Source: Escherichia coli O157:H7 (GTDB lineage: Bacteria; Pseudomonadota; Gammaproteobacteria; Enterobacterales; Enterobacteriaceae). Taken from it: DNA of 64,000 nt. Positions 688-43,230 of the stretch are shown here, in pieces; position 1 is the first letter of the stretch; the number at the start of each line of letters is the position of its first letter. The DNA lies in the NCBI RefSeq assembly GCF_013167455.1, contig NZ_CP038328.1; one strand, written 5' to 3'. Position numbers and translations under genes: made by a program. The notes beneath the pieces are model-generated. The model was given only the letters and a program-made list of their open reading frames with translations, had not been told where the DNA came from and searched no databases.

Positions 688-838
688 AACTTTGCCTCAG
701 GCATTAGAAATAGCGCGTTATTGTACACGGATTAATCGCACTACAAAACAGGATCACAAACATCCTCCGCAAACAAGTATTGCAGAGTCCCTTTGTGATC
801 GCTTTCACGGAGCATAAAAAGGGTTATCCAAAGGTCAT

Positions 839-16941: not shown

Positions 16942-17526
16942 GTGAATCTGATGACGACGATAACAGGCGTTGTGCTGGCAGGCGGTAAAGCCAGACGAAT
17001 GGGCGGCGTAGATAAAGGATTGCTGGACTTAAATGGCAAACCGCTGTGGCAACATGTCGCTGACGCGCTTATGACGCAGCTCTCTCACGTCGTGGTTAAT
17101 GCTAATCGTCATCAGGAAATCTATCAGGCAGGCGGTCTGAAAGTGATTGAAGATTCACTGGCGGATTACCCAGGCCCTCTGGCAGGGATGCTTTCAGTAA
17201 TGCAGCAGGAAGCTGGTGAGTGGTTTTTGTTTTGTCCGTGCGATACGCCTTACATTCCCCATGATTTAGCCGCCCGGCTTAATCATCAGCGCAAAGATGC
17301 GCCTGTCGTGTGGGTCCATGACGGTGAACGCGATCACCCGACTATTGCTATGGTAAACCGCGCTATTGAGCCTTTATTACTAGAATATCTGCAAGCAGGA
17401 GAACGCCGGGTAATGGCATTTATGCGTCTGGCTGGCGGTCATGCGGTTGATTTCAGCGATCATAAAGATGCATTTGTTAACGTGAATACGCCAGAGGAGC
17501 TTGCCCGATGGCAGGAAAAACGATGA
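16942..17526 (+). CDS. mobA: Molybdenum cofactor guanylyltransferase
   Basis: 194 aa [22 protein letters not shown]..., LAGGxxxRMG motif. Confidence 0.93.
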
Positions 17527-41251: not shown

Positions 41252-41353
41252 AACGCCTCCTGACGCAACAACTTACCCGCACAAAATAGAATTGTGCTGT
41301 ACAAACGTCCAGTTGGAAAGGCATTTCCTGCGAGGCGCTACGCAAAAATACAA

Positions 41354-41374
41354 AAGGCCGAACGCGTCGGCCTT
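41354..41374 (-). terminator. Rho-independent terminator of udp
   Basis: aaggccgacgcgttcggcctt hairpin followed by T-run on minus strand. Confidence 0.7.
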
Positions 41375-41391
41375 CAGACAGGAGAAGAGAA

Positions 41392-42153
41392 TTACAGCAG
41401 ACGACGCGCCGCTTCCACCACGATTTTCACCGCTTGGCTTTCAGTTTGTTTCATCGTCTCAGCATTCGGGATCTCTTGCTGGGTGCGGTTAACGATAACA
41501 CCCGCTACCATACCGGCACGCAGGCCCTGACTTGCACACATGGTCAGCAGGGTTGCAGATTCCATTTCATAGTTCATTACGCCCATCGCCTGCCACTCTT
41601 CCATAGAACCTTTAAAGTGACGAACTACGCGACCAGAGTAAGTATCGTAACGTTCCTGACCTGGGTAGAAGGTATCAGAAGAAGCTGTCACGCCAACGTG
41701 AGTTGTCGCGCCAATGGATTTCGCAGCTTCAACCAGCGCAGTCGTACATTCGAAATCAGCGACAGCCGGGAATTCCAGCGGTGCGAAGTGCAGGCTCGCG
41801 CCATCCAGACGGACAGACGCCGTGGTAACCAGGACATCACCCACATTAATATGCGGCTGAATAGCGCCCGTTGTACCGATACGCAGGAAGGTGCGAATGC
41901 CCAGCTGTGCCAGCTCTTCAACAGCAATAGAGGTAGACGGGCCGCCGATACCGGTAGAGCAGACGATAACAGGTTTACCATCCAGCTCTGCACGCCAGGT
42001 AGTGAATTCGCGGTGAGATGCCAGCTTAACCGGCTTATCCATCAGCGCGGCGATCTTTTCCACACGATCCGGGTCGCCAGGGACGATGGCAAGCGTAGCC
42101 CCTTGTAAATCGTTTTTAGTGAGGCCGAGATGAAAAACATCAGACTTGGACAT
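41392..42153 (-). CDS. udp: Uridine phosphorylase
   Basis: [35 protein letters not shown]..., 253 aa. Confidence 0.96.
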
Positions 42154-42226
42154 ATACAACTCCTCTGTGAATCGGTTTAGTCAGAAGAAGCAAAAAGACA
42201 CTTTACCGAAGGGTTTAACATTTTTT

Positions 42227-42294
42227 CGTGATACTCATCACCATGACGCAAATGCGTTGCATAAATTTACCCACCAAAGGTGATGCAAATCACA
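42227..42294 (-). promoter_or_regulatory. udp promoter: tandem CRP sites about 52 bp apart (CytR/CRP architecture)
   Basis: GTGATACTCATCAC (42228-42241) and GTGATGCAAATCAC (42280-42293), both GTGA-N6-TCAC. Confidence 0.7.
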
Positions 42295-42414
42295 TAAATC
42301 ACTCTTCATTCTGCAGGACTGCATAAAAGATGAGCCGATTCAGGCAATGTGATTTGTTGCATGCTGACTATAGTTAACATTGCGCAACATTTTTATAAGG
42401 GTACGGAGAATACC

Positions 42415-43230
42415 ATGGCAACAACACAACAATCTGGATTTGCACCTGCTGCATCGCCTCTCGCTTCGACCATCGTTCAGACCCCGGACGACGCGATTGT
42501 GGCGGGCTTCACCTCTATCCCTTCACAAGGGGATAACATGCCTGCTTACCATGCCAGACCAAAGCAAAGCGATGGCCCACTGCCAGTGGTCATTGTAGTG
42601 CAGGAAATTTTTGGCGTGCATGAACATATCCGCGACATTTGTCGCCGTCTGGCGCTGGAGGGGTATCTGGCTATCGCACCTGAACTTTACTTCCGCGAAG
42701 GCGATCCGAATGATTTTGCCGATATCCCCACGTTGCTTAGCGGTCTGGTAGCAAAAGTGCCTGACTCGCAGGTGCTGGCCGATCTCGATCATGTCGCCAG
42801 TTGGGCTTCCCGCAACGGCGGCGATGTTCATCGTTTAATGATCACCGGATTCTGCTGGGGTGGACGTATCACTTGGCTGTATGCCGCGCATAATCCACAG
42901 CTAAAAGCCGCAGTGGCGTGGTACGGCAAACTGACGGGCGATAAGTCGCTGAATTCACCGAAACAACCTGTTGATATCGCAACCGATCTTAACGCGCCGG
43001 TTCTCGGCTTATATGGCGGTCTGGATAACAGTATTCCGCAGGAGAGCGTTGAAACCATGCGCCAGGCGCTGCGGGCTGCTAATGCGAAAGCAGAGATTAT
43101 CGTGTACCCGGACGCCGGGCATGCATTCAACGCTGATTATCGCCCGAGCTATCATGCCGCATCTGCAGAAGATGGCTGGCAGCGTATGCTGGAATGGTTT
43201 AAGCAGTATGGTGGGAAGAAGTCGCTGTAA
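42415..43230 (+). CDS. ysgA: Putative dienelactone hydrolase / carboxymethylenebutenolidase
   Basis: [32 protein letters not shown]...; 271 aa from internal ATG. Confidence 0.85.

What the first reader, a model, noticed from the sequence alone, without database searches (positions are those of the whole stretch)
42227..42294. Tandem CRP sites spaced about 52 bp in the udp promoter
Two GTGA-N6-TCAC motifs with centre-to-centre spacing of about 52 bp match the CRP-CytR-CRP nucleoprotein architecture of nucleoside-catabolism promoters; CytR would bind between them.
Basis: established knowledge. Interest (0 to 1): 0.2.

Follow-up and report, generated by a model that had tools for sequence, protein, structure and literature searches.

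The report
Known CRP–CytR–CRP switch of udp promoter

Summary
Two exact GTGA-N6-TCAC palindromes lie at 42228-42241 and 42280-42293, with centres exactly 52 bp apart. They sit in the 261-bp gap between udp (minus strand, ATG at 42153) and the divergent ysgA.

The window is E. coli, 100% identical to O157:H7. It differs from K-12 MG1655 at 2 of 301 promoter bases, and neither change touches a core element.

The DNA between the sites is an exact copy of the published natural udp CytR operator: octamers TATGCAAC and TTTGCGTC with a 3-bp spacer, abutting the proximal CRP site.

In 80 species-level Enterobacterales genomes the pair is always present. Spacing is 52 bp in 74 and 53 bp in 6. The pair stays a near-fixed distance from the udp start codon, while its distance to ysgA varies. 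The GTGA/TCAC cores are nearly invariant and the N6 spacers vary freely. A -10-like hexamer lies exactly 21 nt after the proximal site in 80 of 81 sequences. That puts the proximal site at about -41.5 (class II position) and the distal site at about -93.5.

The mechanism is known from the literature. CRP at the proximal site activates. CytR bridges the two CRP dimers and blocks activation. Cytidine releases CytR.

Verdict: interpretation supported, already known, low interest. One side note: the published 5' end lies 4 nt upstream of the expected start, beside a conserved T5 tract.

The parts
42279..42294 (.). Distal CRP site (CRP2). On the udp strand it reads TGTGATTTGCATCACC; centre 42286.5, about -93.5 from the inferred start.
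   Evidence: Exact GTGA-N6-TCAC. Present in all 81 sequences compared: core information 1.91 bits per position against 0.65 in the N6 spacer, with 58 distinct spacers. K-12 differs only at flank base 42279, C versus T.
42227..42242 (.). Proximal CRP site (CRP1). On the udp strand it reads GGTGATGAGTATCACG; centre 42234.5, about -41.5, overlapping the -35 region.
   Evidence: Exact GTGA-N6-TCAC. Core information 1.95 bits per position against 0.36 in the N6 spacer. Its centre lies 78.5-87.5 bp from the udp ATG in 77 of 80 genomes.
42245..42263 (-). CytR operator: left octamer TATGCAAC (42263-42256), spacer GCA (42255-42253), right octamer TTTGCGTC (42252-42245). It abuts the 22-bp CRP1 site.
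   Evidence: Identical to the published udp CytO operator and its left half-site ATTTATGCAACGCA. A pair this good occurs in about 1% of random 37-mers. The left pentamer is TGCAA or TGTAA in 65 of 75 aligned sequences, while the right half varies and is polymorphic within E. coli.
42282..42289 (-). CytR-like octamer TTTGCATC (2 mismatches to GTTGCATT) inside the N6 spacer of CRP2. It is a candidate site for CytR competing with CRP at CRP2.
   Evidence: Read directly from the sequence. That CytR competes with CRP only at CRP2 of udp is my recollection of Gavigan et al. 1999, a paper cited but not readable here. The motif is E. coli-specific, because N6 spacers vary between species.
42200..42205 (-). 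-10 hexamer TAAAGT of the udp promoter.
   Evidence: A TA[A/G/C]A[G/A]T hexamer lies exactly 21 nt after the proximal 16-mer in 80 of 81 sequences. No consensus -35/-10 pair is found, as expected for an activator-dependent promoter.
42191..42197 (-). Transcription start region, minus strand CTTTTTG. The canonical +1 is predicted at about 42193; the published 5' end is at 42197.
   Evidence: SMRT-Cappable-seq start for b3831 at MG1655 4016387, with 76 reads (M9) and 50 reads (rich). Mapped through the MG1655 alignment.
41392..42153 (-). udp coding sequence (uridine phosphorylase, 253 aa).
   Evidence: ORF. RefSeq annotation of identical E. coli records.
41343..41375 (-). Intrinsic terminator of the monocistronic udp transcript.
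   Evidence: A 9-bp G+C-rich hairpin followed by a T run. The published 3' end, MG1655 4017234, maps to window 41350.

Best explanation
This is the regulatory region of the E. coli udp promoter, a CRP-dependent promoter under CytR anti-activation.

When glucose is scarce, cAMP-CRP binds the proximal site, which overlaps the -35 region at about -41.5, and recruits RNA polymerase to a promoter that has a usable -10 (TAAAGT) but no -35. A second CRP dimer binds 52 bp (five helical turns) upstream, on the same face of the DNA.

The CytR dimer binds weakly to its imperfect inverted octamers between the two CRP dimers, next to the proximal one. Protein-protein contacts with both CRP dimers clamp it there. 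The CRP-CytR-CRP complex then prevents CRP from activating polymerase. Cytidine bound to CytR weakens the CytR-CRP cooperativity, and udp is expressed.

Shown here: the sites, their spacing, their fixed geometry relative to the -10 and to udp, their deep conservation, and their identity to the published operator. Taken from the literature: protein binding, activation, anti-activation and induction.
For: - Sequence: exact palindromic cores 52 bp apart.
- Identity: the window is E. coli, and its promoter differs from K-12, in which the experiments were done, at only 2 of 301 bases (42303 and 42279), neither in a core, an octamer or the -10.
- Operator: the inter-site DNA equals the published udp CytR operator and half-site, and octamer pairs this good are rare (about 1%).
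- Conservation: in 80 species-representative Enterobacterales loci the pair is always present, at 52 bp in 74 and 53 bp in 6. Cores are nearly invariant and spacers are free.
- Geometry: the -10 sits at a fixed 21-nt offset.
- Anchoring: the pair is tied to udp (78.5-87.5 bp from the ATG in 77 of 80 genomes) and not to ysgA (104.5-378.5 bp).
- Within E. coli: the promoter is present in 5425 of 5426 complete genomes. Variants in four divergent strains avoid the cores, the left octamer and the -10.
- Literature: udp is a proven CytR target. Only one CRP site serves activation, and two serve repression. CytR acts by anti-activation, and cytidine relieves it. CRP binding at udp was recovered by genomic SELEX.
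Against: Nothing contradicts it; there are four caveats.

1. The only experimental 5' end I could retrieve (window 42197) lies 4 nt upstream of the start expected from the conserved -10. Taken literally, it would put the CRP sites at -37.5 and -89.5.
2. I could not read the primary footprinting papers, so binding data are second-hand.
3. No curated CRP weight matrix was available, so scoring was by consensus mismatches.
4. The right CytR half-site is weak (5 of 8) and poorly conserved beyond close relatives.
Confidence: 0.95

Rival explanations
1. The two CRP sites mainly control the divergent gene ysgA (putative dienelactone hydrolase) rather than udp.
For: The sites lie in a shared 261-bp divergent intergenic region. 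The distal site is about 129 bp from the ysgA ATG.
Against: Across 79 genomes the distance from CRP2 to the ysgA start ranges from 104.5 to 378.5 bp (sd 68). The distance to the udp ATG and to the udp -10 is essentially fixed. A separate conserved TATAGT (42369-42374) closer to ysgA is the likelier ysgA -10.
Confidence: 0.03
2. The motifs are a chance occurrence of a short palindrome in AT-rich intergenic DNA and have no function.
For: Loose CRP-like matches (2 or fewer mismatches) are not enriched in the window, and a loose pair appears in 6% of shuffles.
Against: Exact cores are expected 0.84 times per 64 kb, and an exact pair at this spacing about 5e-5 times. Cores and spacing are conserved in 80 of 80 genomes while the N6 spacers diverge. 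Published experiments also argue against it.
Confidence: 0.005
3. The tandem CRP sites act only as a synergistic double activator (a class III promoter without CytR), and the inter-site octamers are irrelevant.
For: Tandem CRP sites can co-activate at some promoters. The right CytR half-site is weak and variable.
Against: The literature states that at udp only one CRP site takes part in activation, while both are needed for CytR repression. The inter-site DNA is the operator used for specific CytR binding studies. The left half-site TGCAA/TGTAA is conserved in 65 of 75 sequences. V. cholerae CytR represses udp in an E. coli cytR mutant.
Confidence: 0.02

Closest known systems
E. coli K-12 udp promoter (udpP), CRP1-CytO-CRP2 module (Brikun et al. 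1996; Gavigan et al. 1999; Sernova & Gelfand 2012)
   Same: It is the same locus. The CRP cores, both CytR octamers and their spacer, the -10, the leader and the 52-bp spacing are all identical.
   Different: There are two single-base differences from MG1655 in 301 bp: 42303 (A versus G, upstream of CRP2) and 42279 (C versus T, the base just 3' of TCAC in CRP2). Neither allele matches the CRP consensus A at that position.
deoP2 promoter of E. coli (the archetypal CRP-CytR-CRP promoter)
   Same: Two CRP sites about five helical turns apart with CytR sandwiched between them, and anti-activation relieved by cytidine.
   Different: The CytR half-sites have 0-bp spacing at deoP2 and 3-bp spacing at udp. 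That deoP2 has 53-bp CRP spacing is from my own knowledge and was not checked here.
Other CytR regulon promoters (cdd, nupG, tsx, ppiA, rpoH, cytR)
   Same: CytR depends on adjacent CRP, and the octamer half-sites are weak.
   Different: The number of CRP sites (1-3), the half-site spacing (0-11 bp) and whether both CRP sites activate differ between promoters. At udp only one activates.

Membership tests
CRP-CytR-CRP (CytR regulon) promoter | Two CRP sites matching TGTGA-N6-TCACA | tested here: met
   9 of 10 and 8 of 10 core matches, both with exact GTGA-N6-TCAC. Conserved in 80 genomes.
CRP-CytR-CRP (CytR regulon) promoter | CRP sites about five helical turns apart (52-53 bp centre to centre; 30-31 bp between 22-bp sites) | tested here: met
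   52 bp in the window. 52 bp in 74 and 53 bp in 6 related genomes. This matches the 30-31 bp gap reported.
CRP-CytR-CRP (CytR regulon) promoter | Proximal CRP site at the class II position (about -41.5), replacing the -35 element | tested here: met
   The conserved -10 lies 21 nt after the proximal 16-mer in 80 of 81 sequences, which gives -41.5 for a standard start. No -35 is found. Caveat: the published 5' end would give -37.5.
CRP-CytR-CRP (CytR regulon) promoter | CytR operator of two octamer half-sites (AATGCAAC / GTTGCATT) between the CRP sites, within 5 bp of one of them | tested here: met
   TATGCAAC-GCA-TTTGCGTC at 42263-42245. It ends at the edge of the 22-bp CRP1 site and is identical to the published operator. 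The rule is quoted.
CRP-CytR-CRP (CytR regulon) promoter | Demonstrated binding of CRP and CytR, and CytR/cytidine-dependent regulation | not testable with these tools
   Reported for the K-12 sequence in the literature. The window is identical in every element.
CRP-CytR-CRP (CytR regulon) promoter | crp and cytR genes present in the same genome | not tested
   Both lie outside this 64-kb window. The window is 100% identical to E. coli O157:H7 chromosomes. That E. coli carries both genes is established knowledge.

The most novel reading that the evidence does not exclude
The conserved T tract at the udp start (minus strand GTCTTTTTGC, 42199-42190), together with a published capped 5' end 4 nt upstream of the canonical +1, might mean that udp transcripts begin with transcriptional slippage (reiterative U addition). 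That would add a UTP-sensitive layer to the control of a pyrimidine-salvage gene, on top of CRP and CytR. The evidence does not exclude this, but a poly-C trimming artefact of the sequencing method explains the offset at least as well.
Probability: 0.08. Interest if true: 0.4.

Novelty: already known. Interest (0 to 1): 0.06.

Why it matters
It matters little as a discovery. The udp promoter is one of the classic model systems for combinatorial control, in which a repressor works only by docking between two activator dimers. The value of this check is that the annotation can be made with confidence. It also gives an independent footprint across 80 genomes. That footprint shows that the CRP cores, the 52-bp phasing and the -10 offset are the constrained features, while the CytR half-sites, especially the right one, drift. 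This agrees with the published view that the CRP dimers dictate the geometry of the complex.

Tried and rejected
- The primary papers could not be read: Brikun 1996, Gavigan 1999 and Pedersen & Valentin-Hansen 1997 are not held.
- Start-site tables: the Kim 2012 supplement is cut before b3831, Conway 2014 has no supplement held, and Cappable-seq 2016 has no hit. Only SMRT-Cappable-seq gave a value.
- Searching the literature for genome coordinates returned only irrelevant papers. One search failed on syntax.
- A loose CRP consensus scan (2 or fewer mismatches) is uninformative on its own: 15 sites against 25.7 expected. No curated CRP or CytR weight matrix was available, and I did not build one from memory.
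- The sigma-70 consensus scan found no promoter in 42100-42460.
- Rfam found nothing in 42050-42500.
- The conserved leader does not fold better than shuffles (z = +0.78), so a structured RNA element in the 5' UTR is rejected.
- No paper links udp to reiterative transcription in a specific way.
- The idea that the CRP pair serves ysgA was rejected from the distance statistics.

Full report
**Observation.** The stretch 42227-42294 holds two exact GTGA-N6-TCAC palindromes: GTGATACTCATCAC at 42228-42241 and GTGATGCAAATCAC at 42280-42293. Their centres (42234.5 and 42286.5) are exactly 52 bp apart. The whole 64-kb window has four such matches against 0.84 expected from shuffles. At that rate, two of them falling 50-54 bp apart is expected about 5e-5 times per window (my arithmetic). 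A looser criterion (2 or fewer mismatches to TGTGA-N6-TCACA) is not informative on its own. It gives 15 sites against 25.7 expected, and a pair at this distance in 12 of 200 shuffles. The case therefore rests on the exact cores and on conservation.

**Context.** The window is Escherichia coli. The udp-ysgA segment is 100% identical to several O157:H7 chromosomes and is present in 5425 of 5426 complete E. coli genomes. udp (uridine phosphorylase) is on the minus strand, with its ATG at 42153 and its stop at 41392. ysgA diverges on the plus strand from 42415. The lower-coordinate site is therefore the promoter-proximal one. On the udp strand the distal site reads TGTGATTTGCATCACC (9 of 10 core positions) and the proximal site reads GGTGATGAGTATCACG (8 of 10). 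Against K-12 MG1655, the 301 bp around the promoter differ at two bases. These are 42303 and 42279, the latter being the base just 3' of TCAC in the distal site. Everything else is identical.

**CytR operator.** Between the two 16-mers the udp strand reads TTTGGTGGGTAAATT-TATGCAAC-GCA-TTTGCGTC-AT.
- The left octamer (42263-42256) has one mismatch to AATGCAAC.
- The right octamer (42252-42245) has three mismatches to GTTGCATT.
- The spacer is 3 bp, and the right octamer ends at the edge of the 22-bp proximal CRP site.

An inverted octamer pair at least this good occurs in about 1% of random 37-mers drawn from the window, and a single octamer with 1 or fewer mismatches in about 2%. [quoted passage not shown] The 14-mer ATTTATGCAACGCA is the half-site used for the CytR DNA-binding-domain structure and for binding studies.

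**Comparative footprint.** I fetched the udp locus from 80 species-representative Enterobacterales genomes, from Escherichia to Yersinia, Serratia, Rahnella and Erwinia. The results were as follows.
- Every genome has the pair of CRP-like sites. The spacing is 52 bp in 74 and 53 bp in 6.
- Exact GTGA...TCAC is kept in 73 of 81 distal and 76 of 81 proximal sites.
- Information content is 1.91 and 1.95 bits per position in the cores, against 0.65 and 0.36 in the N6 spacers. The spacers show 58 and 61 distinct sequences.
- A -10-like hexamer (TAAAGT in 63, TAGAGT in 11, TACAGT in 5, TAGAAT in 1) lies exactly 21 nt after the proximal 16-mer in 80 of 81 sequences.
- With the hexamer at -12 to -7, the proximal centre is at -41.5 and the distal centre at -93.5. 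No consensus -35/-10 promoter is detected, as expected for an activator-dependent promoter.
- The proximal centre is 78.5-87.5 bp from the udp ATG in 77 of 80 genomes. The distance from the distal centre to the ysgA start ranges from 104.5 to 378.5 bp. The module therefore belongs to udp.
- The left CytR pentamer is TGCAA or TGTAA in 65 of 75 aligned sequences, while the right half is highly variable.
- In four divergent E. coli strains, substitutions fall in the N6 spacers, the CRP2 flank, the right half-site and the spacer. None falls in the CRP cores, the left octamer, the -10 or the start region.

This matches Sernova & Gelfand (2012). They report a conserved 30-31 bp gap between the udp CRP sites, and CytR peaks that are clear only in close relatives of E. 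coli.

**Mechanism.** The mechanism comes from the literature read here. udp is one of nine experimentally proven CytR targets. CytR alone binds weakly and represses only in complex with CRP. The action is anti-activation. At udp only one CRP site takes part in activation and both take part in repression. Cytidine releases CytR. CRP binding at udp was recovered by genomic SELEX. My inference from the geometry is as follows. The proximal CRP acts as a class II activator. The distal CRP, five turns upstream on the same face, supplies the second docking surface. CytR sits asymmetrically, 19.5 bp from the proximal centre and 32.5 bp from the distal centre.

**Transcript ends.** SMRT-Cappable-seq reports a udp transcript from MG1655 4016387 to 4017234, with 76 reads at the start in M9 and 50 in rich medium.
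- Mapped to the window, this runs from 42197 to 41350.
- The 3' end sits at the T run of a predicted terminator hairpin at 41375-41353, which supports the mapping.
- The 5' end lies only 2 nt after the -10 hexamer, 4 nt upstream of the canonical start at 42193 and next to a T5 tract.
- The method trims 5' poly-C and clusters starts within 5 bp, so an artefact at the C of CTTTTT is plausible. Slippage at the T tract is an untested alternative.

**Verdict.** Both the observation and the interpretation are correct, and the feature is a textbook regulatory module. It is already known and of low interest. The only loose ends are side observations: the start-site offset, the conserved unstructured leader, and conserved blocks nearer ysgA.

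Noticed in passing
window 42190-42199 (minus strand GTCTTTTTGC): A T5 tract sits at the udp start region, and T3-T5 followed by a purine is conserved in most of 80 genomes. The published capped 5' end (MG1655 4016387 = window 42197) lies 4 nt upstream of the start expected from the -10. This could be transcriptional slippage or a poly-C trimming artefact.
   Followed up: partly
window 42153-42197 (minus strand, udp 5' UTR): The first ~20 nt of the leader (CTTTTTGCTTCTTCTGAC) and the region around the Shine-Dalgarno sequence (CACAGAGGAG) are very conserved across genera. The leader has no significant fold (z = +0.78) and no Rfam match, so the reason for the conservation is unknown.
   Followed up: partly
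window 42343-42363: A conserved block reads GGCAATGTGATTTGTTGC on the + strand. It holds a TGTGA CRP half-site (42349-42353) next to a CytR-like octamer GTTGCATG (42356-42363, 1 mismatch), about 69 bp upstream of the distal CRP site. It is conserved in Escherichia, Salmonella, Citrobacter and Enterobacter. It could be a further CytR/CRP element or part of the ysgA promoter.
   Followed up: partly
window 42369-42374 and 42320-42332: TATAGT on the + strand is nearly invariant among close relatives and is the likely ysgA -10. A second conserved block, ATCTTTT(A/G)TGCA on the udp strand, lies between it and the distal CRP site; its function is unknown.
   Followed up: no
window 42399: There is a minor udp-direction transcription start (MG1655 4016185, 17 reads in M9) next to the ysgA start codon. 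It would give a 246-nt leader that reads through the whole CRP/CytR region. A possible -10, TATTCT, lies at 42412-42407.
   Followed up: no
window 795-808: Another exact GTGA-N6-TCAC (TGTGATCGCTTTCACG, 1 core mismatch) lies about 255 bp upstream of a 469-aa ORF (1060-2469, glnA by position), beside an NtrC-like TGCACCAATATGGTGC. It is probably the known CRP site of the glnA control region.
   Followed up: partly
window 17324-17337: The fourth exact GTGA-N6-TCAC lies inside a 194-aa ORF (16942-17526, the size of mobA). It is probably a chance match.
   Followed up: partly
window 42279: This strain has C where K-12 and most sampled E. coli have T, at the base immediately 3' of TCAC in the distal CRP site. 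Neither base matches the consensus A.
   Followed up: partly
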